The translations under genes and the position numbers were made by a program. Positions 28,903 through 40,476 of a DNA stretch of 41,069 bases are shown in pieces (position 1 is the stretch's first letter; each line of letters starts with the position of its first letter). The notes beneath the pieces are model-generated. The model did no database searches. It worked only from the letters and a program-made list of their open reading frames with translations, and was not told the origin of the DNA. Source of the DNA: Candidatus Campbellbacteria bacterium RIFOXYC2_FULL_35_25 (GTDB lineage: Bacteria; Patescibacteriota; Minisyncoccia; Phycocordibacterales; UBA12079); contig MFAE01000008.1 of NCBI GenBank assembly GCA_001774495.1, positions 16,150 to 57,218 of the forward strand. The letters run 5' to 3'.

Positions 28903-29124
28903 TGTGGAGATGGGGAGAATTGGTCACGAGTCACTAAGCATATTTTTCGTGCTTCGCACTCAAATCTGCTAAGTGCTCTCGACCCCGCCTCACTGTTGCT
29001 CCTGCGTCGCAACATGTTCCGGCTTTCGATTCTCGCTCGCAAAGTACGCAGGTACTTTGCTCATCTCCACATAATATAAAAACCGCCAGCTTATTGCTGG
29101 CGGTTTTTATATTATGTGGAGATG
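28903..29124. repeat. Direct and inverted degenerate copies of the tmRNA 3' end interleaved with hairpins
   Basis: tgtggagatggggagaat at 28903; ttcgattctcgc...catctccaca at 29028-29071; 29-bp perfect inverted repeat 29062-29090/29096-29124. Confidence 0.8.
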
Positions 29125-29489
29125 GCGAGAATCGAACTCGCGTGTAAACAAGGCTTTTTAATAATTCTACATTGTTATTTTATTTTTTGTGTTTAGAGGA
29201 AATAGGTATGAAACAAACAAAACCCTACAACCTCGATCTCTTTAGTTTCGGAATTGAGTCAGAGAAAGCTTATTTCCTAGTCTGAAATTTATAGCAAACA
29301 ATCTATCTATCAAACATCAACAGATTGCCCGCCAGCTTAAGCTAAAGCTAATGCTGGAGCATAAGGAGATAAAATCGCCTTTGCTTTTTGTGACAAGTTT
29401 GCACTTATCTTTGTGAATCAGTTTTAAAAGTTAACTCAGCTTTCAATGCATATAAAAAAGTGACTTATTTATCTAAGCCGATCATCCCC
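29117..29489 (-). ncRNA. ssrA: tmRNA
   Basis: 5' GGGGATG pairs with 3' CATCTCC-A (G3:U70); T-arm GCGAG-TTCGATT-CTCGC; internal tag ORF; directly downstream of smpB. Confidence 0.93.
29337..29402 (-). other. tmRNA tag reading frame ANLSQKAKAILSPYAPALALA*
   Basis: GATAAGT-GCA resume context; hydrophobic ALALA C-terminus. Confidence 0.75.
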
Positions 29490-29577
29490 CTAAAGAATTT
29501 TATTTATTTTAATAAAATGCTTAAAATGAATGACCGATTTTTTATTTCAATGAACATTTTCTACTTACTACCAACTG

Positions 29578-30024
29578 CTAACCAATTTTTACCTCTCTTT
29601 GAATATCCCGCTCAGTGTCACGTTTCTTGATGTCCTCTCTTTTATCAAATTTCTTTTTTCCACGGACAACGGCGATTTCAACCTTGATTTTGTTGCCTTT
29701 AGTATACATCGAAATAGGTACTATTGTCAATCCTCTCTTCTCCTCAAAACTTTGCAGTTCCTTCAGTTCTTTCTTTGTTAAAAGTAGGCGTCTATTCCTC
29801 TCTCTATCGTAACTAGCGGGTGTATTTACTGGTTGGTAGGGGGGAATATTAGAGTTCAGTAAAAAAGCCTCTCCTCCTCGGATAGTTATATGAGAACCCT
29901 CAATATTTCCGTGCTTTGATTTTATGGATTTTACTTCAAAGCCGAAGAGTTCAATTCCAGCTTCAAATTTTTCCATAACCTCATAATTAAAGGTTGCTTT
30001 TTTGTTTCTTATTAATGTTGCCAT
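29578..30024 (-). CDS. smpB: SsrA-binding protein
   Basis: NKKATFNY, EAGIELFGFEVKSI, RNRRLLL, GKKKFDKR. Confidence 0.97.
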   Translation of the reverse strand: MATLIRNKKATFNYEVMEKFEAGIELFGFEVKSIKSKHGNIEGSHITIRGGEAFLLNSNIPPYQPVNTPASYDRERNRRLLLTKKELKELQSFEEKRGLTIVPISMYTKGNKIKVEIAVVRGKKKFDKREDIKKRDTERDIQREVKIG

Positions 30025-30053
30025 TAGCCCTATAATAGCAGTAGAAACCTAAC

Positions 30054-30082
30054 TTGACAAGCACTTGTGCTTGTGCTATCCT
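30054..30082 (+). promoter_or_regulatory. TTGACA-N17-TATCCT promoter with extended -10
   Basis: Read directly; divergent from smpB. Confidence 0.75.
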
Positions 30083-30140
30083 TTGCGCAGAGATTTAGGG
30101 TTTGTTATTCTTTATTAATTTCTTATTGAAGGAGATCGGT

Positions 30141-30545
30141 ATGGCACTGCGCGACATTTTCAGAGATGGATTGGAGCAGGCAAGGGTTTCTTTTCCTCAG
30201 CACGGTTTTTCTAGCCTGCTGGAAAAGAAGGAGTGGGCGACCAAGGTCGTCGAAGATTGGGCTCGCTCTCAGTATGGGCAGGTTATTATGGCAATGAGGT
30301 CTCCCAGCCACCACTCGGTGACGGGGACGACTGCCGAGTTCTTCATCCCTGGCAAAAAATTGGTCGTTCTCTTTGTTGTCGAACCTCGGCACAACCTGAA
30401 CAAGGAAATTATTTTGACGGCTGCCGAGTACGATGACAACGAGGCGGGTGTCTTGGAGCAGATTGACCAAACATTGGTCAAAGCCTCTCCTAAAGACCGA
30501 CTTACACATCAGCCTTTCGCCGGCTTGGGCCAAATGGTTATTTAA
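30141..30545 (+). CDS. Hypothetical protein (134 aa), GC-richer orphan with SD
   Basis: GAAGGAG before ATG 30141; terminator-like hairpin near 30565-30605. Confidence 0.7.
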   Translation: MALRDIFRDGLEQARVSFPQHGFSSLLEKKEWATKVVEDWARSQYGQVIMAMRSPSHHSVTGTTAEFFIPGKKLVVLFVVEPRHNLNKEIILTAAEYDDNEAGVLEQIDQTLVKASPKDRLTHQPFAGLGQMVI

Positions 30546-30664
30546 ATGATAAGCTCTTTATTTAAAAAAAGCCCCACGGTTTCATCGCCATGGGGTTTTT
30601 CTTTTTTTTAAAAAAATTAAAGTTTTCTTTATTTGTCTATTGGCTTTGTGTATAATAGTTTTAT

Positions 30665-32575
30665 ATGAAAGATATTTTTAACAACAAAGAAACAGACAAA
30701 AAGAAGGGGGGTAAGAAGTTGCCCAAAAAATCTGTACCAATGCAGTTTTTTGGCAATTTTTTGAGCACCCTGTTAATTTTTATGATTATCTTGACGGTCT
30801 ATCTTTCGGTTTCTGAAGAGAATAAAGACATTGAAGAAATATCAATCTCTGACCTTGTGACATCTATAAAGGCCGATGAAGTAGAATCTATTGTTGTTGA
30901 AGGAGAAAAATTAAATATTGCATATACAGATGGACAGGAAAAATTTACAAAGAAAGAAGTGGAATCTTCTCTTTTAGAAACTTTGGTAAATTATGGGGTG
31001 ACTACAGAAGAGTTGAGTCAAATTAATATAGATGTAAAACGCCCAACAGGTTTTTCTTTTTGGCTATCAGCACTTGCTCCTTTTCTTATTCCAATTCTTT
31101 TCATCGCCGTTCTTATTTGGTATATGTCTCGGCAAGTCAAAGGAGCAGGGATGCAAGCTTTTAATTTTGGACAGTCAAAAGCTCGTTTCATAGATCCAAA
31201 TGACAAAAAACAAAGAGTTACTTTTAAGGATGTGGCTGGAGTAAAAGAAGCCAAACAAGAATTGCTAGAAATTGTTGATTTCTTAAAAAACCCTAAAAAG
31301 TTTTTGAGTATTGGGGCTGAAATACCAAAGGGGGTTATCTTAATGGGTGCTCCTGGAACAGGAAAAACTCTTTTAGCGAGAGCTGTAGCTGGTGAAGCCG
31401 GTGTCCCATTTTTCTCAATCTCTGGTTCAGAATTTGTTGAGATGTTTGTGGGGGTGGGAGCTTCGCGAGTTCGTGACTTGTTTAAGATGGCTAAAAAGAC
31501 AGCTCCTTCTATTGTTTTTATCGATGAAATTGATGCTGTTGGACGTGTGAGAGGAACTGGTGTCGGAGGAGGAAATGACGAAAGGGAACAAACTTTAAAT
31601 CAGATATTAGTTGAGATGGATGGTTTTGAGCCGAATGAAAAAGTTATCGTAGTAGCGGCAACCAACAGACCTGACGTTTTGGACCCCGCACTTTTAAGAA
31701 CAGGAAGATTTGACAGAAGGGTGGTGGTTGATTTGCCTGATCGTGAGGATAGAGAAGCAATTTTAAAAATTCACGCTCGTAAAAAACCATTAGCAGAAGA
31801 TGTAAACTTGGAGGTTATTGCACAAAGAACCCCTGGATTTTCTGGTGCAGATTTGTATTCCTTAATGAACGAGGGCGCCATATTGGCGGCAAGAGAAGAC
31901 AGAACTAAGGTTTCCCAATTTGATTTTATCCGAGCCATCGAAAAAGTGATGCTCGGTCCAGAAAGAAAAAGCCACATTCTTTCTGTAAAAGAAAAAGAAA
32001 TTACAGCTTATCACGAAGTTGGGCATGCTTTGATTTCTTCTGTTTTAAAACATGCGGACCCTGTGCACAAAGTTTCTATTATTTCCAGGGGACGAGCTGC
32101 CGGCTACACTTTGCATCTTCCTTTGATTGAGAAAAGATTACATTCCAAAAAAGATTTCCTTGATGATATTGTCGTTTCTTTGGGGGGATACACAGCAGAA
32201 AAAATGATTTTTGATGATGTTACGACCGGTTCTTCCAATGACTTGCAAGTAGCGACTGCTGTAGCCCGTGACATGGTTACAAAGTATGGGATGTCAGACG
32301 AAATTGGACCTATTGCTCTCGAGGAACAAGGAGGAAGAATCATGATGGGTGGTGCTGGGGTTTCTAGTAAAGACCATTCAGAAAAAACTACTTATTTGAT
32401 AGACACCGAGGTTTCAAAAATTATGAATCATGCCCTAGAAAGAGCCAAACAAACTTTAATTGAAAACAAAAAAGCTCTTGATAATATAACTAAGCGGCTC
32501 GTAGAGGTGGAAACTCTTGAAAGAGAAGAGTTTGAAAATCTTTTGATTGCAAACGGAATAACACCGAAGAAATAA
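30665..32575 (+). CDS. ftsH: ATP-dependent zinc metalloprotease FtsH
   Basis: Two TMs, [29 protein letters not shown] zinc site. Confidence 0.97.
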
Positions 32576-32595
32576 GAGGCATCTTATTTCTTCGG
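32564..32595 (+). terminator. Hairpin formed from the last ftsH codons and their inverted copy
   Basis: ccgaagaaataag-aggcat-cttatttcttcgg (13-bp perfect stem). Confidence 0.65.
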
Positions 32596-32759
32596 AATTT
32601 CTAATTTCTAATTTCTAAAAAAATTCAATAATACTAAAATACCAAAATTTTCGCGGTCGCGAAAATTTTGGTATCCTTGAATTTTTTTATTCAGGATTCA
32701 TAATTCTTTATTCATAATTCCATTTAATTCTGATAGAATTAAATATAAGGTATCAAATT

Positions 32760-33206
32760 ATGAAAAAAAGACTAATACTTATTTTAATTGTAACGGCACT
32801 GATTGTTTGGGATCAAGCCTATATTCCTGATAATTTAGGTTCTTTCCAAAAACAAGCAGAGGAGATTTATAAAGATAGAGTATTGCCAACAAAAAAATTT
32901 ACAACGGACGGTTGTTCAATGTGGCCGAACTCAACGGCTGGTTATTCTTGGGAAGAATTATGTATAGAACATGACATTGCTTATTGGATGGGAGGGACAG
33001 AACAAGAAAGACTTGAGGCTGACCAAAAATTCAGAGATGGCGTAAATAAAATTTCACCATTTGTTGGAGACGTTATGTATTATGCTGTTCGTTTGGGTGG
33101 AAATAAATGGGTCCCAGCTCCTTGGCGTTGGGGTTATGGCTGGGCTTATCCTTACGACGAACAAGAGGTAATTGTTTGGGATGAATTGCATAATAATAAG
33201 CTCTAA
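32760..33206 (+). CDS. Exported protein with a prokaryotic phospholipase A2-like motif
   Basis: Signal/TM anchor; TDGCS, CIEHDIAY (His-Asp), ERLEADQKF. Confidence 0.6.
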   Translation: MKKRLILILIVTALIVWDQAYIPDNLGSFQKQAEEIYKDRVLPTKKFTTDGCSMWPNSTAGYSWEELCIEHDIAYWMGGTEQERLEADQKFRDGVNKISPFVGDVMYYAVRLGGNKWVPAPWRWGYGWAYPYDEQEVIVWDELHNNKL

Positions 33207-33318
33207 TTATTTTTAATGAAAAAGTTAGTTGGGTTGATTAAATAATGATTTTTAGGTAAAGTTTGATATACTTTTAGTTGTTTGGTCGTATTTATACATA
33301 AATTTTTGAAAATTTTGT

Positions 33319-33391
33319 GCGCGTGTAGCTCAGTTGGTAGAGCGCAGAGCTTATACCTCTGTGGTCCCAGGTTCGAGTCCTGGCGCGCGCA
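33319..33391 (+). tRNA. tRNA-Ile(UAU)
   Basis: GCGCGTG/CGCGCGC acceptor, GCTC/GAGC D-stem, CAGAG-CT[TAT]AC-CTCTG anticodon arm, CCAGG-TTCGAGT-CCTGG T-arm; 73 nt; CCA not encoded. Confidence 0.93.
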
Positions 33392-33404
33392 CAAAGTTTT
33401 TAAA

Positions 33405-33709
33405 ATGTGTGGTAGCTCAGTTGGACAAAAAGCAAATTTCTTTGCTTTTTGTCCGGTTTTTGTTGAAAGCAAAAAATTTTCGTTATCGAGCGAAGCGAGA
33501 TAGGAAATAGGAGGAAGAGTGCAGAGCTTATAATTTCAAGCGAGGACGACATAAAAATAAATAAAATAATTTTTTTGTTATTTTATTTATTTTTGTATTG
33601 TCCGAGTGATGGAATTATATCGAAGATATATCTCTGTGGTTTGCCGTTGCTTTAAATTGTTTTTAAATTAAAACAATTTAAAGAGGTTCGAGTCCTGGCG
33701 CGCGCACCA
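33405..33709 (+). pseudogene. Second tRNA-Ile(UAU) copy split by three hairpin insertions
   Basis: Segments tagctcagttgg (to 33424), gagtgcagagcttata (33517-33532), ctctgtggt (33632-33640), aggttcgagtcctggcgcgcgcacca (33684-33709). Confidence 0.85.
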
Positions 33710-33817
33710 AGTTTTTAAAATTATACTTTAAGTTGTATTATTTTCTATATCATGGTTCAATTAAGTTAGAAGTATTGGGGTATTAAATAGTATTCAACCA
33801 AAAGAGGAGGATCGATT

Positions 33818-34024
33818 ATGCGACATTTTGTCAGAATCAACCCGTCTTTGGTAGAAGCTGTTATCTTACACACGCCAGGCAAAAAGAGACCCGCTGTTAT
33901 TTTTGTTGGACTCGGGACAAGGAATGATCCTGTTGAAATCATTGAAAGATACTCGTCTCAAAATGTATGTGACATTTCGGAGTTGGATGGGACCGTCCAT
34001 GTCTTCTCAACAGGAAATTGTTAA
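33818..34024 (+). CDS. Hypothetical protein (68 aa), orphan with SD
   Basis: GAGGAGG before ATG; terminator-like hairpin 34044-34078. Confidence 0.6.
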   Translation: MRHFVRINPSLVEAVILHTPGKKRPAVIFVGLGTRNDPVEIIERYSSQNVCDISELDGTVHVFSTGNC

Positions 34025-34098
34025 TGGTCCAGAACAGAGCCCACCCCTTTCTCGCGAGAGAAGGGGCATTTTTTTATTTAATTTCTTGTGATTTAGAG

Positions 34099-34124
34099 AA
34101 GGCCACCGTACGGGCGGTGGCCTT
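34099..34124. terminator. Hairpin between convergent orphan genes
   Basis: AAGGCCACCG-tacggg-CGGTGGCCTT. Confidence 0.7.
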
Positions 34125-34159
34125 GGTCCCATTTTGGGAAAATATTTTCGCAAAGATTT

Positions 34160-34357
34160 TTATTTTTTCTCTTCGCGACAAAACTCACACTCACACCCCA
34201 GGGGGTGTTCTCCTCTTCCACCGACAACTACAGCTGGGGCATTTGTTCCCTTTGAGATTCTGGTTCCTCCTGGTAATGTATGCATGTTTCCGCAGGACCT
34301 CGCTTTGTGGGAGCTGCCCCTAGCACTTCTTCCCCAACCGCCTCTGCCTTTTGCCAT
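34160..34357 (-). CDS. Small basic Gly/Arg-rich protein (65 aa) with a C-terminal CxCxxC
   Basis: AAAGGA before ATG 34357; TAGACA-N17-TATTAT promoter upstream. Confidence 0.55.
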   Translation of the reverse strand: MAKGRGGWGRSARGSSHKARSCGNMHTLPGGTRISKGTNAPAVVVGGRGEHPLGCECEFCREEKK

Positions 34358-34467
34358 GGTTTGTTTTCCTTTGTTGAGATTATTGCCGACCAACTTGTCT
34401 AAATTTCTGCGCTAAATAATATATTATTGTATAGATTCTGTCTATTTTTTGTTTCTATTTTGTATTT

Positions 34468-36609
34468 TTATTCAAAATGTACCTCAATTTTTTTTAGCTT
34501 TTCTTTTACCACTGGGTAATTTTTTAAATTAGCATCTTCTTTAATTATTTCTTGAGCTTCGGTGCGGGCGGCTTCTACCATTTTTATATTTTTTATTGCT
34601 TCCATCCCGATATCAGAAATACCCCATTGTTTTTTGCCCGACAATTCGCCTGACCCTCTGAGAAGTAAATCTTTTTCTGCTAATTCAAAACCATTTTTAG
34701 CAGACTGTAGAGCTTTTAATCTATCTAATGTTTGTTCTGCTTTTGTGTCGCTAAATACATAGCAAAAAGCTTGATGGTTACTTCGAATCACCCGACCCCT
34801 TAATTGATGGAGTTGAGCTAGCCCAAATCTTTCCGCCCCTTCAATAATTATTATTGTAGCATTGGGGACATTTACTCCAACTTCTACAACAGAGGTGGCG
34901 ACAAGAATATCGATTTCTTTATTTTCAAATTGAGACATAGTAGCTTCTTTGTCAGCTGGAGTCATCTTGCTGTGTAAGATATCAATTTCGTATTCTGGAA
35001 AAACCTCTTCCTTTAATCGTTGGGCTTCCGCTCTTACGGACTTAACTCGAAGAGCCTGAGCTTTTTCTGGGTCGGGCTCTTCTATCCTCGGGCAAATAAC
35101 ATACATTTGTCGTCCCTCTTTTAATTCTTCCCGAATAGTTTCATAAGTTTTTTCTCTCTTGGCTGGAGTAACAATTTCTGTGATAACAGACTTTCTTCCT
35201 GTTGGCATTTGGTCCAGCAAGGTTAAATCTAGGTCACCATAAATAGTCAAAGCTAATGTTCGGGGTATTGGTGTTGCTGTCATAGATAGCAGGTGGGGGA
35301 TTACTTCGCTCTTTTTTGTAATTTTCATTCTCTGGTTTGTTCCAAACTTGTGTTGCTCATCGATGATTACACAGGCGAGGTCTTTGAATACAACACCTTT
35401 TTGTATAAGAGAATGAGTCCCTATTAAGATGGGGATTTCTCCATTGGCAACCCATTTCAATAGTTGAGGGCGAGAAATACCAGTCCAGTTATTTGGGTTA
35501 GTTTTTGAGGGAAATTTTCTGCACCCACTTGAGGTTATCAATCCGATACTTATATTTTTTTCAGAAAAATATTGTATGAATGATTCAAAAAGTTGTTTAG
35601 ACAAAACTTCTGTTGGTGACATATAAGCAATTTGAAGATTTCCAAAGCTCTGTTCATTTGGCCTGGTCGTAACAACAGCATTAGAAACAGCGGCCGCCAC
35701 GGCTGTTTTTCCTGAACCAACATCACCTTCAAGTAATCGAGACATTGGATGGTTACCTCCAATATCTTTTAAGATTTGCTCGATTGATTTTTCTTGGGCC
35801 TTGGTAAGCTTGAAAGGGAAACTGTCTAATATTTTTTTAATCTCTTCTTTTGTCTTTTTTATTTTAAATGAGGGCTGTTGTTGAAATTTTTTCTTTTGAC
35901 TTTGGCGGGATAACTGAATAAAGAAAATTTCTTCGAAAGCAAATCTTTTACGAGCGGAAACAGCATCAGATTTTTTTTGCGGAGTGTGAATCCAAATCAG
36001 GGCGGTTTTCAGGGAAGGGAGGTTATATTTTTTTAAAATTTCTTGAGGGATAGGGTCAGCAATTTCATCTAAAAGGCCCGAGTTAAAAATTTTTTTGATA
36101 CTGTGGTGAATCCATTGAGAACTCACACCTCTGCTTTCTGGATAAATAGGAGAGAAAAAATGATTGTCTGATTCTTCTTTGAATATTCCCGTAGGGATAG
36201 ACTCTGTTATTTCGTATGCAGGATTGGCTAAATAGGGCTTACCTTTTCTGTCGCTGATAGTTCCGCTAAATTTAGCAAAAGTTCCTTCGGGCAACATTTT
36301 AGATATATAGGGTTGGCGAAACCAAACAGCTGGGATGGTACCCTCGCTATCTTCGAGAACCGCCTCTGTCATTGTAATCTTTTTGTAATAAGCTTTACTG
36401 GCTTTTATTTTTTTTACCTTAGCGTAGATAATGATTTTGTCTCCTATCTTTAAATCTTTTGTGTTTTTTGTTTCGTCTGTATCTCCGTGGCGAGGAGGGA
36501 AATAGTAAAGCAAATCCTCAATAGTTTTTAAACCAATTTTTTTGAGGGCTTTTTTTCGGCTATCTGCGAGGCGAGGAAAAATCTCTTCAATTTTTGAGTT
36601 TAGTTGCAT
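34468..36609 (-). CDS. recG: ATP-dependent DNA helicase RecG
   Basis: N-terminal wedge/OB region, GDVGSGKT, IIDEQH, MTATPIPRT, QLHQLRGRV. Confidence 0.96.
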   Translation of the reverse strand: MQLNSKIEEIFPRLADSRKKALKKIGLKTIEDLLYYFPPRHGDTDETKNTKDLKIGDKIIIYAKVKKIKASKAYYKKITMTEAVLEDSEGTIPAVWFRQPYISKMLPEGTFAKFSGTISDRKGKPYLANPAYEITESIPTGIFKEESDNHFFSPIYPESRGVSSQWIHHSIKKIFNSGLLDEIADPIPQEILKKYNLPSLKTALIWIHTPQKKSDAVSARKRFAFEEIFFIQLSRQSQKKKFQQQPSFKIKKTKEEIKKILDSFPFKLTKAQEKSIEQILKDIGGNHPMSRLLEGDVGSGKTAVAAAVSNAVVTTRPNEQSFGNLQIAYMSPTEVLSKQLFESFIQYFSEKNISIGLITSSGCRKFPSKTNPNNWTGISRPQLLKWVANGEIPILIGTHSLIQKGVVFKDLACVIIDEQHKFGTNQRMKITKKSEVIPHLLSMTATPIPRTLALTIYGDLDLTLLDQMPTGRKSVITEIVTPAKREKTYETIREELKEGRQMYVICPRIEEPDPEKAQALRVKSVRAEAQRLKEEVFPEYEIDILHSKMTPADKEATMSQFENKEIDILVATSVVEVGVNVPNATIIIIEGAERFGLAQLHQLRGRVIRSNHQAFCYVFSDTKAEQTLDRLKALQSAKNGFELAEKDLLLRGSGELSGKKQWGISDIGMEAIKNIKMVEAARTEAQEIIKEDANLKNYPVVKEKLKKIEVHFE

Positions 36610-36782
36610 ATAGAGAAGTATAAAGTCTCTAAAGTTGAAAGTCTATAATTTGATAAGATTAAATAAGTTTGTGTCCGAATATTCAAGTATGTTATATTAT
36701 AGAGATAATAAACAGGATGAGAAGATTTGTTGTCGGAAATTTTCTTGATGGTTTAATTTTAAAATTTAATTTACATATAAAT

Positions 36783-37463
36783 ATGCAACAAAAAACATTA
36801 ATACCAATAGTTATAGGAGTTCTTATAATTTTTGCCGGAACTTGGTTTTATTTATCTGGTGGAGATAATAAAGAGTCAAAAACCGCTTCAGATTCAATCG
36901 ATATTTTAGCTCAAGTAAATGGTGAGGAGATAAACAAAGAAGCTTTCGAGACAGCCAAGGCTCAATTTATTACCACCCAAAACATTGAAGTGGCGTCTCT
37001 TGACGAAGAAACCCTTAACCAACTAAATACACAAGTTCTTGATTCTCTTATCAATAATTCTCTAGTTCAGCAAGCTACTAAAGAAAGTAAGGTGAAGGTA
37101 TCAGATGAAGATGTCGACGCACAGATAGATCTTATAAAGAGTCAATTTGAAGATGAGGCAGCTTTTCTGAAAGTTCTTTCAGAACAAGGTATTTCAGAAA
37201 CAGAATTGCGTTCTCAGGTTGTTTTGGACATTGCCGCACAAACATATTTGGAGTCAGTACTTGATCTCGATTCAATCACCGTAACTGAAGAAGAAGTTGA
37301 TGCTTTGTATAAACAAGAAGCTTCTGTTGATAAAGATTTGCCGGCTCTTTCCGAAATCAAAGGTCAAATAGAAGCATTTATTGTTCAACAAAAACAACAA
37401 GAATTATTTTCCCTGCATATTCAAAAGTTACGAGAGGATGCTGATATAGAAATCTTAAATTAA
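36783..37463 (+). CDS. SurA N-terminal-domain chaperone, membrane anchored
   Basis: N-terminal TM; LAQVNGEEI, LDSLINNSLV.Q, VSDEDVDAQI SurA_N-type pattern. Confidence 0.8.
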   Translation: MQQKTLIPIVIGVLIIFAGTWFYLSGGDNKESKTASDSIDILAQVNGEEINKEAFETAKAQFITTQNIEVASLDEETLNQLNTQVLDSLINNSLVQQATKESKVKVSDEDVDAQIDLIKSQFEDEAAFLKVLSEQGISETELRSQVVLDIAAQTYLESVLDLDSITVTEEEVDALYKQEASVDKDLPALSEIKGQIEAFIVQQKQQELFSLHIQKLREDADIEILN

Positions 37464-37473
37464 GAAAAGATTA

Positions 37474-37509
37474 AATAAAAAATACCAACGCAAGTTGGTA
37501 TTTTTTATT
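37474..37509. terminator. Bidirectional terminator
   Basis: AATAAAAAATACCAAC-GCAA-GTTGGTATTTTTTATT. Confidence 0.8.
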
Positions 37510-38070
37510 GTGCGGAGAGGGAGGGATTTGACCTCCCAGTTCTAAGTTCGGACTTCGCCTTTCGGATTGCAAAGTTTGGAGGGATTTGGTCACAAAGTTT
37601 AGGTTTCGATGGGGAGGGATTTGACCTCCCAGTTCTAATTTCAGACTTCGCCCCTTCGGGACTCGTCTTCACTAAGAACTCGTAGGCTCGTCGCTCAAAT
37701 TTTTCTTTCGCTTCGCTACAGAAAAATATATTCGCTCTTGTTCAAATCCCTCCCTCACTTTAACAGCGACACAAAATAAAAACACTGCTTTGGCAGTGTT
37801 TTTATTTTGGTCGTGCGGAGAGATTGTCCACTTCGCTCGAACCTATTTTGAAAAGCAATCGCGAAGCGATTGAAGTTTAAATCTTACGCTCCGAGCAAAA
37901 GATAATTTCAAACCATAACTTACGCTCGACTAAATCGGAAGTTTGAAACAAACGAAACGACTTGTCGTTTCCACTTCGTTCCAACGACAACCAACTCCAA
38001 AAAAAATTCTTTTCCTTTTCTCTAAAAAATTTTGGGGGGCGAAAAAAGAAAGGAAAAAACGCAAAGAAAT

Positions 38071-38252
38071 TTTTTTGGGTTGGTTTCTGCTCATACTTCA
38101 CAGAAAGTCGTTTCTTAGTCGGATGTTTTAGATTCATTTTGTTTTCGTCGCTCGCTCTGTTGTAAAAAACACATTGCCTTTGGCAATGTGTTTTTTACAA
38201 CTCGCTCTCTCACGAAAACAAAACGAAACTAAAACGCTATTTATCTTGTGTT
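38071..38252. repeat. 182-bp direct repeat, copy 1 (nested hairpin)
   Basis: Identical to 39501-39681 except for one deleted C. Confidence 0.95.
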
Positions 38253-38378
38253 GTCTTTATTGAAATATAAAAATTTTTATTGAAAAAACAAGAAGATTAT
38301 GGAATAATAACAAAACTGAGTGGTGGTCACTCAGTAGTATTTTTTTAAAGTTCTTTTAAAACATTATGAGGTGGTAAC

Positions 38379-38954
38379 ATGCAAGTAGCTCAAGCTCAAA
38401 ATTTTGTTCCTCAAGTAAAAACCGTTCAGTTGTTTGATACCAAACAACAACCAACTCTCGGTCGAGAAATCATCCCAGCGGTTCATGGCGAGTATTATGG
38501 CTATTCTTCTGTATTTACAAGAGAAAGGCCCCTTTATGCACTAATGAAGTGTAAATCCAACAAAGATCGACCTGTAAGCGAGATTGTTGATTTAGGTTTA
38601 GAAGCTAATGCCTTCTTCCGGTTTAATGAGACGGATCAAAAGATCATCTCGATAAAAACAGCAAATAATCTCGGCTTACTACAGAGAGGAAAGACAAAAA
38701 TCGATTTTGATGACATCTGGTTCGCCCCAACTAACCTTACAGCCAAGCAATTTATGAAATTGCAGGCTAATAAAAACGAAAAAGAGTTGGTAAACTTATG
38801 CCAAAAAATACTTATCAACGGTCGTGATGCCGTTGAACTTCGCAAAGGATTGGTTGTGACGATGATGACCAGTAGTGAAAAATACGGCATGTTTTTGGTG
38901 AGCAAAATTACACCATTCTCAATTCAAATTGAGGCATGTCACATTTTGCTTTGA
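38379..38954 (+). CDS. Hypothetical protein (191 aa), cassette gene with SD
   Basis: GAGGTG before ATG; terminator ACACCACAGGA/TCCTGTGGTGT at 38976-39002. Confidence 0.75.
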   Translation: MQVAQAQNFVPQVKTVQLFDTKQQPTLGREIIPAVHGEYYGYSSVFTRERPLYALMKCKSNKDRPVSEIVDLGLEANAFFRFNETDQKIISIKTANNLGLLQRGKTKIDFDDIWFAPTNLTAKQFMKLQANKNEKELVNLCQKILINGRDAVELRKGLVVTMMTSSEKYGMFLVSKITPFSIQIEACHILL

Positions 38955-39038
38955 TACCTCAAACCTCAACCCGACACACCACAGGAACGAATCCTGTGGT
39001 GTTTTTTATTGTTTTATGTCATTATCTTTATTATCAAT

Positions 39039-39491
39039 ATGGAAATAAGAAATTATAATAAAAAAGATAAAGTTGCTGTGCAACATATTTTTGCTAAATA
39101 TTGGACAGATAGAGAATTTTTAGATGAGCTTGAGAAAAATTTGGACGGGGGCGAAGTTTATTTTTACGTTGCTGAAAAATACGACGAAATAATCGGTGTT
39201 GCAGGTTTTAGAAAAGCTCCAAAATATCTTCGTGATTATGCAGAAACAGAAAATCCTGTGGAGTTGTATATAATAGCTTCTAAAGAGAAAAACAAAGGTT
39301 TTGGAAACACTCTTGCACAAAAAATTATTGAAAAAGCAAAAAAAATGAATTTTACAGAAATAGAGTGTTATAGCCCCGAGACTCACAATAGTTCGTGGAA
39401 ATTTTATGAGAAGCTTGGATTTAAAAAGCACGGAATTATTAACGATCCAGATGATGGATACCCCGGAATGCTTTGGAGGAAAGTTTTGTAA
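39039..39491 (+). CDS. GNAT family N-acetyltransferase
   Basis: IRNY start, IIGVAG, KNKGFGNTL, KFYEKLGF. Confidence 0.88.
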   Translation: MEIRNYNKKDKVAVQHIFAKYWTDREFLDELEKNLDGGEVYFYVAEKYDEIIGVAGFRKAPKYLRDYAETENPVELYIIASKEKNKGFGNTLAQKIIEKAKKMNFTEIECYSPETHNSSWKFYEKLGFKKHGIINDPDDGYPGMLWRKVL

Positions 39492-39500
39492 GGAAAAGAA

Positions 39501-39681
39501 TTTTTTGGGTTGGTTTCTGCTCATACTTCACAGAAAGTCGTTTCTTAGTCGGATGTTTTAGATTCATTTTGTTTTCGTCGCTCGCTCTGTTGTAAAAAAC
39601 ACATTGCCTTTGGCAATGTGTTTTTTACAACTCGCTCTCTCACGAAAACAAAAGAAACTAAAACGCTATTTATCTTGTGTT
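39501..39681. repeat. 181-bp direct repeat, copy 2
   Basis: Begins 10 nt after the GNAT stop. Confidence 0.95.
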
Positions 39682-39810
39682 TGCCCCAACCCTCCCAGCG
39701 CACACAAAAAAGCTCCCAAACAGACAAAAACCACACTTCGTGTGGTTTTGTATGATAAAAGGGACAAATGGTGTATTTGTCCCTTTTAGCTTTGTGGAGA
39801 TTTGATATTT

Positions 39811-39963
39811 TTATGGTTTTTTGATGTATTTTACACCCCTACCAGCATTTCCAACTTGAATTATCTTTTGCTCTTTTTCAAGAATATTTAAGTATCTTGT
39901 TGCACTTCTTTTAGTAGTTCGTAGCAATTCTTGAACATCCGAGTTTGAAATATTTGGATTTGA
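39811..39963 (-). pseudogene. 3' fragment of a gene ending in a DeoR-like winged HTH
   Basis: SNPNISNSDVQELLRTTKRSATRYLNILEKEQKIIQVGNAGRGVKYIKKP*; no start codon; begins at TCAAATCC. Confidence 0.65.
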
Positions 39964-40140
39964 CCTCCCAGTTCTAAGTTCGGACTTCGCCCTACAGGCT
40001 CGCCCTCATTAAGAACTCGTAGGCTCGGCGTTCGTATTTTTCTTTCAGAAAAATATACTCACCCTTGTTCAAATCCCGACCTCTCTACCGTCAAGACATC
40101 AATATTCAAATACCTTAATCGGTATTTGAAATTGCTGTTG

Positions 40141-40227
40141 CGGAGAGGGAGGGATTTGAACCCTCGGAGGCTTTTACACCTCGGCACGTTAGCAGTGTGC
40201 TGGTTTAAACCACTCACCCACCTCTCC
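40141..40227 (-). tRNA. tRNA-Ser(GCU)
   Basis: GGAGAGG/CCTCTCC acceptor, CT[GCT]AA loop, long variable arm GAGG/CCTC, GAGGG-TTCAAAT-CCCTC T-arm; 87 nt; A31.C39 mismatch; CCA not encoded. Confidence 0.92.
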
Positions 40228-40252
40228 GTGTGTTCGTCAAATTATATTTTTA

Positions 40253-40476
40253 GGGAGGGATTTGGTCACAAATAATTTTTCTTTGAAAAATTTTCGCGAC
40301 CCCGACTCGTCTGTCTCGCTTCGCTCGACATAACTCCGTCCCTTGATTTCAGACAGAAAACAAAGCAGTTTGCTTTCTTTTCTGATAAATATTTTTTATA
40401 AAAGATAAAAAATATTTATCAGAACTTAAATCAAGCCTCGGCACGTTAGCAGTGTGCTGGTTTCACCCACCTCTCC
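40253..40476 (-). pseudogene. Upstream tRNA-Ser(GCU) copy with a D-loop deletion and hairpin insertions
   Basis: ggagaggtgggtga[delta gtggttta]aaccagcacactgctaacgtgccgagg retained; then inserts; aaatccctccc at 40253-40263. Confidence 0.85.

What the first reader, a model, noticed from the sequence alone, without database searches (positions are those of the whole stretch)
28921..40303. The same TGGTCAC...CGACCCC insert occupies the T-loop of two different RNA-gene copies
Seen: tmRNA copy gagaat|TGGTCAC...(28921-28986)...CGACCCC and tRNA-Ser copy gggatt|TGGTCAC...(40263-40303)...CGACCCC, with a third start at 37587. The ends are shared, the interiors are different hairpins, and the position is equivalent in the T-loop. 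Inference: site specificity for the TTCRA T-loop, which points to a targeted mechanism rather than random decay.
Basis: partly seen in the sequence, partly recalled or inferred. Interest (0 to 1): 0.65.

Follow-up and report, generated by a model that had tools for sequence, protein, structure and literature searches.

The report
Hairpin elements behind CPR tRNA genes
The shared "insert" is the last hairpin of a roughly 170-210-base, protein-less folded DNA element that ultra-small (CPR) bacteria carry behind tRNA and tmRNA genes; each copy holds a reverse and a forward copy of that gene's own 3' end, and I found no published description of it.

Summary
GTGACC followed by the T-loop 3' half occurs three times in the window, all on the minus strand (0.01 expected). 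Two of these sites close a GGGGTCG...GTGACC hairpin.

It is not an insert inside an otherwise intact T-loop. On the far side of the hairpin, GGGGTCG is conserved element sequence whatever the tRNA, not a T-stem. The hairpin (P3) is the last arm of a module laid out as: gene, terminator, X' (inverted copy of the gene's 3' end, split by a small hairpin), junction/P2, P3, then X (a direct copy from C56 to about C74).

A covariance model of this core hits 165 of 201 genomes of the order. An exact motif scan returned CPR-type genome titles in all but one of the 80 listed, and 82% of its hits lie 140-364 nt behind a same-strand tRNA or tmRNA gene.

The helices covary strongly. Modules come and go between two species of the same genus. 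In stacks, the modules further from the gene are more decayed. The direct repeat ends at the tRNA 3' end, as integration-site (att) repeats do.

Best reading (about 0.5): a tiny non-autonomous element that integrates at the T-loop as a folded single strand and brings a replacement 3' end. The enzyme is unknown. RNA data are uninformative. Other agents of this scan described the same family elsewhere in this genome.

The parts
29114..29489 (-). Functional tmRNA gene. Its T-loop-to-3'-end segment is the sequence copied in X' and X.
   Evidence: ARAGORN and Rfam RF00023, 88.7 bits. RNA contigs cover exactly 29116-29480.
29062..29124 (-). T1: a perfect 29+29-nt palindrome. It consists of the tmRNA 3' end plus trailer, a terminator stem-loop, and X'a (the inverted copy of the acceptor 3' strand, 29062-29071).
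   Evidence: Inverted repeat I5, 100% complementary; coordinates.
29039..29061 (-). h1: a small hairpin (AGCAAAGTACCTGCGTACTTTGC) that splits X' between its acceptor part and its T-stem part.
   Evidence: The h1-type motif AAGCAAA-N-TTTGCTT has 12 of 12 genome hits within 600 nt of tRNA genes.
29023..29038 (-). X'b: the inverted copy of the T-loop and T-stem 3' strand of the tmRNA (GAGCGAGAATCGAAAG).
   Evidence: It matches the reverse complement of TTCGATTCTCGC and not the direct T-arm 5' half.
28986..29022 (-). Junction and P2 of the type-B core (CCGGAACATGT...ACAGTGAGGCG).
   Evidence: Model R1 hit 28916-29027, 98.2 bits. Helices 1 and 2 covary.
28922..28985 (-). P3 hairpin, GGGTCG...GTGACC.
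   Evidence: Of its 12 pairs, 10 show compensatory changes in 71 sequences.
28903..28921 (-). X: a direct copy of tmRNA positions 57 to the 3' end (AATTCTCCCCATCTCCACA), with 2 mismatches to the resident gene.
40435..40476 (-). Degenerate copy of the tRNA-Ser(GCU) 5' part (positions 1 to about 47, with 8 nt of the D-loop missing), lying upstream of the real gene.
   Evidence: Direct repeat D10, 94%.
40341..40434 (-). A long A+T-rich branched hairpin that includes an h1-like hairpin (GAAAGCAAACTGCTTTGTTTTC). It occupies the place of T1 and X', but no clear X' can be recognised.
   Evidence: Inverted repeat I7.
40264..40340 (-).
   Evidence: Model R1 hit 40258-40344, 76.1 bits.
40253..40263 (-). 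Truncated X (AAATCCCTCCC, tRNA-Ser positions 57-67).
40140..40227 (-). Functional tRNA-Ser(GCU) gene.
39956..40089 (-). Type-C module behind tRNA-Ser. X' lies at 40067-40089, the core at 39963-40066 and a truncated X at 39956-39962. It abuts a truncated winged-helix gene fragment.
   Evidence: Repeats D3, D4, D7.
37611..37758 (-). A second type-C module with tRNA-Ser arms, 2.4 kb from the gene. X' lies at 37740-37758, the core at 37624-37739 and X at 37611-37623.
37578..37596 (-).
37477..37565 (-). A type-C core fragment (37531-37565), a full-length X identical to the tRNA-Ser 3' end (37511-37530) and an intrinsic terminator (37477-37506). This is probably the displaced original 3' end of the gene together with its terminator.
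   Evidence: 21-nt perfect repeat with 40139-40159 (family D2).

Best explanation
**What it is.** The TGGTCAC...CGACCCC 'insert' is hairpin P3 of a family of small (about 170-210 nt), protein-less, strand-specific elements that sit behind tRNA and tmRNA genes of one CPR (Patescibacteria/Paceibacteria-type) order.

**Proposed mechanism (inferred, not shown).**
- The mobile unit runs from T-loop C56 of the working gene to the end of P3. It consists of [positions 56 to about 74 of the tRNA + terminator T1 + X' + junction/P2 + P3].
- As a single DNA strand of tRNA sense it folds so that X' pairs with the tRNA 3' segment. The resulting stem copies the duplex of the target gene. T1 caps one end and the P2/P3 junction caps the other.
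- A host enzyme exchanges strands at position 55/56 of the T-loop. Candidates are the single Xer-like tyrosine recombinase or one of the Y1/HUH RAYT-like proteins.
- The element-borne 3' end then completes the gene. The old 3' end is pushed downstream and remains as X.
- Repeated events stack modules. Older modules lie further from the gene and decay into pieces such as the remnant at 37578-37596.

**The tRNA-Ser pseudo-copy** at 40253-40476 is a rearranged, decayed gene-plus-module.
For: **Anatomy (shown).**
- The layout is stereotyped behind about 25 of the 40 RNA genes of this genome. X' lies about 40-80 nt after the gene and X about 160-200 nt after it.
- X' is a reverse-complement copy. 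It carries the Watson-Crick partner at wobble positions (tRNA-Trp U6.G67 gives C; tmRNA G3.U70 gives A) and the reverse complement of non-palindromic T-loops.

**Targeting (shown).**

**Spread.** The core model hits 165 of 201 genomes and 129 of 156 genera of the order, but only 6 of 151 genomes drawn across the phylum.

**Single-strand fold.**
- 96.8% of cells are paired, 16 of 18 pairs show compensatory changes, and 0 of 500 shuffles reach the observed values.
- On the tRNA-sense strand G.T pairs outnumber A.C pairs 83 to 9.
- The tmRNA module folds with z = -7.1 as RNA and z = -8.1 as DNA.

**Turnover.**
- At the tmRNA site the module is present in G000 and G005 but absent in the same-genus genomes G002 and G003.
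- The His, Lys(CUU), Gln(CUG), Ile(GAU) and Leu(UAA) modules occur only in G000, and the Arg(CCU) module only in G005.

**Direct repeat behaves like an integration-site (att) identity block.** It starts at C56 and ends within 0-3 nt of the gene's last base in 53 of 79 cases.

**Stacks.** The module nearer the gene is less decayed than the one further away (X'b 22 against 7; X 17 against 3).

**Element-borne stem.** The tRNA end, trailer, terminator and X'a form perfect palindromes of 25-29 nt.

**Displaced original end.** At tRNA-Ser the most distal X (37511-37530) is full length and is followed by a terminator, as expected for the displaced original 3' end.

**Movement between loci.** One unit of about 195 nt is about 96% identical by eye behind tRNA-Gln(CUG) and tRNA-Gln(UUG), and it keeps the CUG-type arm in both places.

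**Possible enzymes.** The genome has one tyrosine recombinase and six Y1_Tnp (RAYT-like) genes.
Against: - No excised form, free circle or empty allele was seen. All strain-level contigs carry the modules.
- No enzyme is linked to the modules.
  - Y1_Tnp is present in 15 of 20 module-rich genomes and in 10 of 20 genomes the model does not hit.
  - Five module-rich genomes, one of them complete, have no Y1_Tnp at all.
  - The Xer-like recombinase is universal, so it cannot discriminate.
- X' is no better conserved than X, so the idea that X' travels with the working 3' end has no direct support.
- In the one filled/empty pair that can be aligned (tRNA-Lys(CUU), G000 against G005), both trailers resemble the empty-site trailer. 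That pair therefore does not separate the replacement model from a duplication model.
- Arms matched to at least 17 tRNA kinds require a retargeting step or arm exchange that is not explained.
- Wide conservation in genomes of 0.6-1 Mb could mean the modules have a function rather than being parasitic.
- P3 is homogenised within a genome, while the 5' half of the core is orthologous between species. Gene conversion could therefore explain part of the apparent mobility.
- The upstream position of the tRNA-Ser pseudo-copy does not follow from the model without an additional duplication or deletion.
Confidence: 0.5

Rival explanations
1. The module is a functional structured RNA. It would be a tRNA-like 'minihelix' whose closing stem reproduces the acceptor and T arms of the neighbouring tRNA, with h1 in place of the tRNA body and P2/P3 emerging from the T-loop. 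It could be made by read-through or from its own promoter, and could serve in tRNA processing, as a decoy, or as a sensor for enzymes that recognise tRNA 3' ends.
For: - Covariation is strong and G.U pairs lie on the tRNA-sense strand.
- The fold is stable.
- The module is conserved in most genera of an order of very small genomes.
- Geometrically it is an acceptor/T-stem mimic with the correct discriminator base.
Against: - The module lies behind an intrinsic terminator, and no promoter-like site was found on the sense strand.
- In four metatranscriptomes the tmRNA contig stops exactly at the mature 3' end, and no RNA run holds words from the module. This is weak evidence, because the organism's mRNAs are not seen in those runs either.
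- Presence varies from one tRNA to another between two species of the same genus.
- Tandem stacks with decaying distal copies and truncated remnants are typical of insertions and not of a required RNA.
- No Rfam family matches.
Confidence: 0.2
2. The modules are not mobile as units. They would grow in place by replication template-switching at terminator hairpins, which extends the palindrome into the tRNA 3' end. Unequal exchange between short repeats and gene conversion among hairpin-rich spacers would do the rest, possibly with the hairpins serving as REP-like sites for the six RAYT-like proteins.
For: - Perfect palindromes run through the A+T-rich trailer.
- An 'empty' tmRNA site in G002 already shows a 5-nt extension of the palindrome into the gene.
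- P3 is homogenised within genomes while the 5' half of the core is orthologous.
- The tandem Leu(UAA) units look like an in-place duplication.
- RAYT-like genes, each flanked by its own hairpins, are present.
Against: - This does not explain why the same conserved junction/P2/P3 core lies behind at least 17 different tRNA kinds in 129 genera.
- It does not explain why the core always ends exactly at C56.
- It does not explain why different core types (B, then C) stack behind one gene.
Confidence: 0.15
3. The copies are ordinary leftovers of conventional genomic islands or prophages that used tyrosine integrases at tRNA-Ser and tmRNA. They would be attL/attR repeats plus decayed island DNA, with no special element involved.
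For: - tmRNA and tRNA-Ser are classical island integration sites (established knowledge, Williams 2002).
- A 21-nt perfect repeat of the tRNA-Ser 3' end brackets 2.6 kb that carry a GNAT gene, small ORFs and a truncated winged-helix gene.
- The direct repeat ends at the tRNA 3' end.
Against: - No integrase lies in or near these segments, and the genome has only one tyrosine recombinase.
- Most modules are about 200 nt long and carry no coding DNA.
- The inverted copy X' and the conserved, covarying core are not features of attL/attR scars.
- No match was found in viral contigs.
Confidence: 0.1
4. The inserts are true intervening sequences (introns) in the T-loop of functional extra tmRNA and tRNA-Ser genes, removed at the RNA level.
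For: The junction lies at a fixed T-loop position, and the hairpin base is conserved.
Against: - The tmRNA 'copy' has no body at all.
- The far side of the hairpin is not a T-stem.
- The Ser copy lacks the last 7 nt of the acceptor strand and part of the D-loop.
- Rfam's tRNA and tmRNA models do not match these copies.
Confidence: 0.02

Closest known systems
Genomic islands and prophages that integrate in the T-loop sublocation of tRNA/tmRNA genes through tyrosine integrases (Williams 2002 classification; from my own knowledge)
   Same: - The target is the T-loop of tRNA and tmRNA genes.
- The element restores the gene's 3' part.
- The direct repeat runs from the T-loop to the exact 3' end.
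- Insertions can stack in series.
   Different: - The element is about 200 nt and has no integrase or any other gene.
- It carries an inverted copy of the identity block and a conserved, covarying three-way junction.
- It is present behind most tRNA genes of a genome rather than one or two.
CTXphi and other IMEX elements, which integrate as a folded single-stranded hairpin attP using the host XerCD (from my own knowledge)
   Same: - No recombinase of its own.
- Inverted arms could fold a single strand into a stem that imitates the chromosomal target.
- Strand specificity.
- The predicted integrated layout (hybrid site, element, inverted arm, loop, arm joined to the old target half) matches gene-T1-X'-core-X.
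   Different: - The target is a tRNA T-loop and not dif.
- The element is about 200 nt against several kb and has no replication or packaging genes.
- Arms differ for each tRNA.
- No test of Xer involvement was possible.
REPINs/REP sequences with RAYT, and IS200/IS605-derived palindrome-associated elements (Y1 HUH single-strand transposition; from my own knowledge)
   Same: - Short non-coding hairpin elements in intergenic DNA.
- Strand-specific single-strand folds.
- A cleavage or junction point at the foot of a hairpin.
- Six Y1_Tnp/RAYT-like genes in this genome.
   Different: - REPINs are not tied to tRNA genes and carry no target-matched arms.
- Five module-rich genomes lack any Y1_Tnp match.
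- The RAYT-like genes here are flanked by other hairpins, not by P3.
Integron attC sites (from my own knowledge)
   Same: Imperfect palindromes that are recognised as folded single strands. Structure is conserved while the interior sequence varies.
   Different: There is no integron integrase, no cassette array and no R-box consensus. The arms here are copies of the neighbouring tRNA.
Transposed non-canonical tRNA introns of Thermoproteales archaea and split tRNA genes (Fujishima and colleagues; from my own knowledge)
   Same: Related insert sequences occur at equivalent positions, including the T-loop, of different tRNA genes.
   Different: Those introns lie inside functional genes and are excised at bulge-helix-bulge motifs by the splicing endonuclease. 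Here the working genes are uninterrupted, and the 'insert' lies in a partial 3' copy behind the gene.

Membership tests
tRNA/tmRNA T-loop-class integrative elements (tyrosine integrase islands) | A direct repeat of the gene's 3' part, from the crossover in the T-loop to the gene's 3' end, flanks the inserted DNA. | tested here: met
   The repeat starts at C56 and ends 0-3 nt beyond the gene's last base in 53 of 79 exact-seed cases. For tmRNA, X lies at 28903-21. For tRNA-Ser, the 21-nt repeat lies at 37511-31 and 40139-59.
tRNA/tmRNA T-loop-class integrative elements (tyrosine integrase islands) | The element encodes its own integrase next to attP/attL. | tested here: not met
   No integrase domain was found in any ORF between 26 kb and 41 kb. 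The whole genome has one tyrosine recombinase, on another contig.
IMEX (Xer-exploiting, hairpin-attP integration as in CTXphi) | Inverted arms fold a single strand into a stem that mimics the chromosomal target site. | tested here: met
   X' pairs with X (and equally with the gene's 3' segment) to form P1a and P1b. The fold has z = -8.1 as DNA. The G.T against A.C bias points to the sense strand.
IMEX (Xer-exploiting, hairpin-attP integration as in CTXphi) | Integration is catalysed by the host Xer recombinase at a dif-like site. | not testable with these tools
   A single Xer-like gene is present in all 40 genomes checked, so presence cannot discriminate. The target is not dif.
REPIN/RAYT or IS200/IS605-derived hairpin elements | Co-occurrence with a cognate Y1 HUH transposase. 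| tested here: inconclusive
   Y1_Tnp is present in 15 of 20 module-rich genomes and 10 of 20 model-negative genomes. Five module-rich genomes have none. G000 has six RAYT-like genes.
REPIN/RAYT or IS200/IS605-derived hairpin elements | Copies are dispersed in intergenic DNA with one conserved hairpin sequence, independent of the neighbouring gene. | tested here: not met
   Module motifs are confined to tRNA flanks (12 of 12, 6 of 6 and 5 of 5 hits within 600 nt), and the arms differ for each tRNA.
tRNA introns (bacterial group I or archaeal bulge-helix-bulge) | The insert interrupts an otherwise complete, foldable tRNA/tmRNA gene. | tested here: not met
   - There is no gene body before the tmRNA copy.
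- GGGGTCG is core sequence and not a T-stem.
- The Ser copy is truncated at both the D-loop and the acceptor 3' strand.
- No Rfam intron, tRNA or tmRNA match was found.
Known RNA families (Rfam 15) | A match at or near a family's gathering score. | tested here: not met
   Only hairpin-type chance matches were found, far below threshold.

The most novel reading that the evidence does not exclude
The modules may be a previously unrecognised class of protein-less, nucleic-acid-guided integrating elements. A folded single strand of about 200 nt (DNA, perhaps taken up by natural transformation, or RNA) would use its own X' arm to read the 3' end of a tRNA gene and direct a host enzyme to exchange strands at the universal T-loop. 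The arms would be re-copied from each new target. This would make it a naturally reprogrammable insertion device that needs no dedicated gene.
Probability: 0.2. Interest if true: 0.95.

Novelty: new variant of a known kind. Interest (0 to 1): 0.78.

Why it matters
- **A very small integrating element.** If the modules integrate as proposed, they would be among the smallest site-specific integrating elements known. They would parasitise, or serve, the most conserved hairpin in biology without any gene of their own.
- **Unexplained spacer DNA.** They account for much of the unexplained intergenic DNA around tRNA genes in one large CPR order.
- **Annotation errors.** They create false or puzzling tRNA calls. 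ARAGORN calls one tRNA-Phe from a disrupted copy.
- **Markers of integration history.** They mark where DNA has entered these tiny genomes.
- **Possible retargeting.** If the arms are re-copied from each target, the system would be of direct interest as a guide-bearing DNA insertion scaffold.

Tried and rejected
**Ideas rejected**
- **T-loop intron.** Rejected. The sequence on the far side of the hairpin is conserved core, and the copies are not complete genes.
- **X'b as a direct copy of the T-arm 5' half** (which would make the module a true tRNA copy). Rejected. Non-palindromic T-loops and wobble positions show a reverse-complement copy.
- **X' better conserved than X.** Not found: 2.01 against 1.94 mismatches over positions 57-65. 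My first stack analysis was biased by best-match scanning and was redone.

**Searches that found nothing or decided nothing**
- **Phage carriage.** No match in IMG/VR for the exact motif.
- **RNA evidence.**
  - Four metatranscriptomes hold the tmRNA, but nothing of the module and nothing of this organism's mRNAs. The result is therefore uninformative beyond 'much rarer than tmRNA'.
  - A simple scan found no promoter on the module's sense strand. It also failed to call the obvious terminator, probably because the A/T extension of the stem absorbs the T run.
- **Empty alleles.** DNA runs and 15 strain-level contigs with identical neighbouring proteins all carry the modules. L222 differs only beyond the module.
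- **Partner protein by association.**
  - Y1_Tnp gave an inconclusive result.
  - The tyrosine recombinase is universal.
  - The ORFs in the 2.6-kb tRNA-Ser segment have no informative Pfam or NCBIfam match other than a GNAT domain.
- **Literature.** Four full-text searches found no description.

Full report
**1. What is in the window**

ARAGORN and Rfam find three real RNA genes:
- tmRNA at 29114-29489 (-)
- tRNA-Ile(UAU) at 33319-33392 (+)
- tRNA-Ser(GCU) at 40140-40227 (-)

The window is C8:16150-57218 of a 782-kb, 15-contig genome of about 35% G+C. Titles of related records place the family among Patescibacteria/CPR (Paceibacterota, Yonath-, Kaiser-, Nomura-, Wolfebacteria and others). The neighbouring genes are housekeeping genes: SmpB, FtsH, RecG and a SurA-like protein.

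**2. Check of the observation**

- At 28985->28903 the sequence is GGGTCGAG[...]CTCGTGACC|AATTCTCCCCATCTCCACA.
- At 40302->40253 it is GGGTCGCG[...]TTTGTGACC|AAATCCCTCCC.
- The third site (37596->37578) has only TTTGTGACC|AAATCCCTCC. It is an exact 19-nt copy of the junction at 40254-40272 and therefore a remnant.

GTGACCRAWTC occurs three times in the window, all on the minus strand, against 0.01 expected. In both full cases the last C of GTGACC aligns with T-loop C56 of the neighbouring gene, and what follows is that gene from position 57.

**3. What the 'insert' really is**

The side of the hairpin away from the tRNA sequence is not a T-stem. GAGnCGGGGTCG is invariant behind tmRNA, tRNA-Ala, -Phe, -Tyr and the Ser copy, although their T-stems differ.

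The hairpin is the last arm (P3) of a module with a fixed order behind the gene:
- **T1:** a terminator.
- **X'a:** the inverted copy of the acceptor 3' strand.
- **h1:** a small hairpin.
- **X'b:** the inverted copy of the T-stem 3' strand plus the T-loop.
- **Junction and P2.**
- **P3.**
- **X:** a direct copy from C56 to the 3' end.

For the tmRNA the parts are T1 with X'a at 29062-29124, h1 at 29039-61, X'b at 29023-38, junction/P2 at 28986-29022, P3 at 28922-85 and X at 28903-21.

The module folds into P1a (10 bp, X'a with the acceptor part of X), h1, P1b, P2 and P3.
- Sense strand as RNA: -74.1 kcal/mol, z = -7.1.
- Sense strand as DNA: z = -8.1.
- Opposite strand as RNA: -69.4 kcal/mol.

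X' is a reverse-complement copy and not a copy of the tRNA 5' strands. It carries the Watson-Crick partner at wobble pairs (Trp U6.G67, tmRNA G3.U70) and the reverse complement of non-palindromic T-loops.

By construction the module is therefore an acceptor/T-arm 'minihelix'. A small hairpin takes the place of the tRNA body, and P2/P3 emerge where the T-loop would be.

**4. A genome-wide family tied to tRNA genes**

- Short-word BLAST of the window's elements against the genome hits almost only the flanks of other tRNA genes.
- About 25 of the 40 RNA genes have X' 40-80 nt behind the gene and/or X 160-260 nt behind it.
- Several core types exist. Type A ends in ...CGCGGGAC. Type C is the 37624-37739 and 39963-40066 kind. 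Type D lies behind Leu and Thr genes.
- Module motifs are confined to the 5.1% of the genome that lies within 600 nt of tRNA genes: h1 12 of 12, type A 6 of 6, GCGAAGC 28 of 86.
- GGTCG-N15-110-GTGACC occurs six times in the genome. Four of these are behind tRNA or tmRNA genes on the same strand.

**5.

A covariance model of the type-B core (A1, R1) hits 165 of 201 genomes and 129 of 156 genera of the order. It hits only 6 of 151 genomes drawn evenly from the phylum. This core is therefore essentially specific to the order.

In 27 of the 30 best loci a tRNA or tmRNA gene lies upstream on the same strand. The bases after GTGACC repeat that gene from position 57, at 12 or more of 14 positions in 12 of these loci.

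- All but one of the 80 listed titles are CPR or unclassified 'bacterium' MAGs. The exception is labelled Patiriisocius.
- Of 83 matches, 68 (82%) lie 140-364 nt behind a same-strand tRNA or tmRNA gene. Seventeen anticodon classes are represented among the well-matched cases.
- The same pattern gives no match in viral contigs.

**6. Structure is under constraint, on the tRNA-sense strand**

- On 71 aligned cores, 96.8% of cells pair, 16 of 18 pairs show compensatory changes, and no shuffle or slid register comes close.
- G.T/T.G pairs outnumber A.C/C.A pairs 83 to 9. Most come from two pairs at the base of P3: G.T in 53 of 71 sequences at one, and GC 30, GT 18, AT 7 at the other.
- The sense strand is therefore the one that folds, as RNA or as single-stranded DNA.
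- The alignment was fitted to the model, so this is supportive and not decisive.

**7. RNA or DNA?**

- Four aquifer metatranscriptomes assemble this tmRNA (29116-29480) and stop at its mature 3' end. No RNA run holds module words.
- The same runs show none of the organism's mRNAs. This only says that the module is far rarer than tmRNA.
- No promoter-like site lies on the module's sense strand.

**8. Signs of insertion**

- **Presence/absence.** The tmRNA module is present in G000 and its congener G005, and in several other genera. It is absent from the same-genus genomes G002 and G003. I fetched the complete G005 genome. Five tRNA loci carry modules only in G000 and one only in G005.
- **Stacks.** The module nearer the gene is less decayed than the distal one (X'b 22 against 7, X 17 against 3).
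- **Repeat boundaries.** The direct repeat starts at C56 and ends within 0-3 nt of the gene's last base in 53 of 79 cases. This is the mark of an element-borne replacement 3' end, as in att sites, rather than of a fixed-length target duplication.
- **Palindromes.** The gene end, trailer, terminator and X'a form perfect palindromes of 25-29 nt.
- **The tRNA-Ser locus.** The most distal X (37511-37530) is full length and is followed by a terminator (37477-37506). Between it and the gene lie 2.6 kb of modules, fragments and ORFs. This is as expected if serial insertions at the T-loop pushed the original 3' end away.
- **Copying between loci.** One unit of about 195 nt is shared at about 96% identity, judged by eye, between the tRNA-Gln(CUG) and tRNA-Gln(UUG) loci. 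It keeps the CUG-type arm at both.

**9. Mosaic evolution**

Cores at different tRNAs within one genome share P3. In G005 the Ala, tmRNA and Gly(GCC) cores are 79-88% identical. In G000 the Trp and Lys(UUU) P3 hairpins are identical. The 5' half of the core, by contrast, is orthologous between species: the Ala cores of G000 and G005 differ at 1 of 57 positions. The apex of P3 is therefore exchanged or homogenised within genomes, which explains 'same ends, different interiors'.

**10. Mechanism**

The layout gene(1-55) | [56 to about 74, T1, X', core] | X is what a CTXphi-like reaction would leave.
- A small single-stranded unit folds so that X' pairs with its own tRNA 3' segment. The stem imitates the target duplex.
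- One strand exchange at position 55/56, followed by replication, integrates the unit.
- The element-borne segment completes the gene, and the old end becomes X.

The steps that are shown are the anatomy, the targeting, the sense-strand fold, the turnover and the att-like repeat. The steps that are inferred are the single-stranded intermediate, the replacement itself and the enzyme.

Candidate enzymes:
- The genome has one Xer-like tyrosine recombinase, which is universal in the 40 genomes checked.
- It has six RAYT-like Y1/HUH genes of 220-251 aa, each flanked by its own hairpins.
- Y1_Tnp is not required for the presence of modules: five module-rich genomes lack it.

Weak points:
- No excised form or empty allele was found at strain level.
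- X' is not better kept than X.
- The one alignable filled/empty pair, tRNA-Lys(CUU), is ambiguous.
- The origin of arms matched to at least 17 tRNAs is unexplained.
- The upstream tRNA-Ser pseudo-copy (40253-40476) needs an additional rearrangement.

I put this explanation at about 0.5. The rivals are a functional tRNA-like RNA (0.2), in-place growth by template switching and gene conversion (0.15), ordinary island scars (0.1) and introns (0.02).

**11. Comparison with what is known**

The nearest systems are:
- T-loop-class tRNA-integrating islands: same target and same repeat, but those carry an integrase.
- IMEX/CTXphi: a folded single-stranded attP and a host recombinase, but the target there is dif.
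- REPIN/RAYT and IS200/IS605-derived hairpin elements.
- Integron attC sites.
- Archaeal transposed tRNA introns.

No Rfam family matches, and four full-text searches found no description.

Other agents of this scan reported the same family on other contigs of this genome. I treated those notes as leads and re-derived the anatomy and distribution here.

- the repeat-boundary statistics;
- the gradient of decay from proximal to distal modules;
- the within-genome homogenisation of P3;
- the restriction of the core to one order;
- the census of Y1 and Xer genes.

**12. Verdict**

- The feature is a member of an apparently undescribed family of tRNA-anchored elements. I class it as a new variant of site-specific integrating or hairpin elements, with a real chance of being something more unusual.

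Noticed in passing
window 33393-33730 (+): Sixteen nt after tRNA-Ile(UAU) lies a second, broken copy of the gene.
- It runs TAGCTCAGTTGG | about 93-nt insert | GAGTGCAGAGCTTATAA | about 95-nt insert | TCTCTGTGGT | about 43-nt insert | AGGTTCGAGTCCTGGCGCGCGCACCA.
- Its 5' acceptor strand is lost.
- A 38-nt direct repeat (33369-33406 and 33684-33721, 97%) covers the T-arm, the 3' end and 14 nt of trailer.
- The copy is absent from the congener G005.
- The result is three hairpin inserts in one 74-nt pseudogene, at the D-loop, the anticodon loop and the variable region.
   Followed up: partly
G000 C2:87840-88066, C5:51752-51871, C13, C14:9725-9900, and window 33420-33512: A second element family is present.
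- It is a structured insert of about 95 nt placed right after D-loop G18G19 of degenerate tRNA copies. The sequence runs ATAAAAAGCGTTTAAGCTTTTTATCCGGTTTCTGCC...CGCCGAAGYGAGTCCC...GGCGATAGGAGG.
- The copies lie next to intact Ile, Phe, Thr, Ser(GGA), Glu and Leu genes.
- All 5 hits of its core motif are within 600 nt of tRNA genes.
- Its junction (G19) and the 3' module junction (C56) are the two nucleotides that pair at the tRNA elbow.
   Followed up: partly
G000 C5:51677-51751: ARAGORN's second 'tRNA-Phe' is a false fold. The real unit is a tRNA-Phe copy with the D-loop insert and a broken 5' acceptor strand. Its last 54 nt are identical to the intact gene 120 nt upstream.
   Followed up: partly
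window 38064-38223 and 39494-39653: Two 160-nt direct repeats (98% identical), each containing a 43-nt perfect hairpin, bracket a 191-aa ORF without any family match and a GNAT acetyltransferase. Together they look like a separate 1.4-kb cassette inside the tRNA-Ser insertion zone.
   Followed up: no
window 39826-39960 (-): The C-terminal 45 codons of a winged-helix (HTH_24/HTH_69-like) gene are cut off exactly at the truncated X of the type-C module. A module insertion or a deletion therefore destroyed a gene.
   Followed up: no
G000 C13:11-685, C6:114905-115582, C6:20018-20773, C6:2462-3154, C10:24050-24736, C7:5858-6520: Six paralogous Y1_Tnp (RAYT-like, HUH plus YxxxNP motif) genes of 220-251 aa occur in a 0.78-Mb genome. 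Several are flanked on both sides by their own G+C-rich hairpins; at C7, for example, AAAAGGGCTGTCGGACAGCCCTTTTTT lies on both sides.
   Followed up: partly
window 28903-28921, compared with L012 (G039 tmRNA): The displaced tmRNA copy X (CAATTCTCCCCATCTCCAC) differs at 2 positions from the resident tmRNA. It is identical to the 3' end of the tmRNA of a genome from another family of the order, G039 (GGGAGTTCAATTCTCCCCATCTCCAC). It could be the ancestral end, a foreign end, or a coincidence.
   Followed up: no
L015 (G002 tmRNA locus): This 'empty' tmRNA site of a same-genus genome already has its terminator palindrome extended by 5 nt into the gene end (TCCAC...GTGGA). Palindrome extension at terminators may therefore happen without a module.
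   Followed up: no
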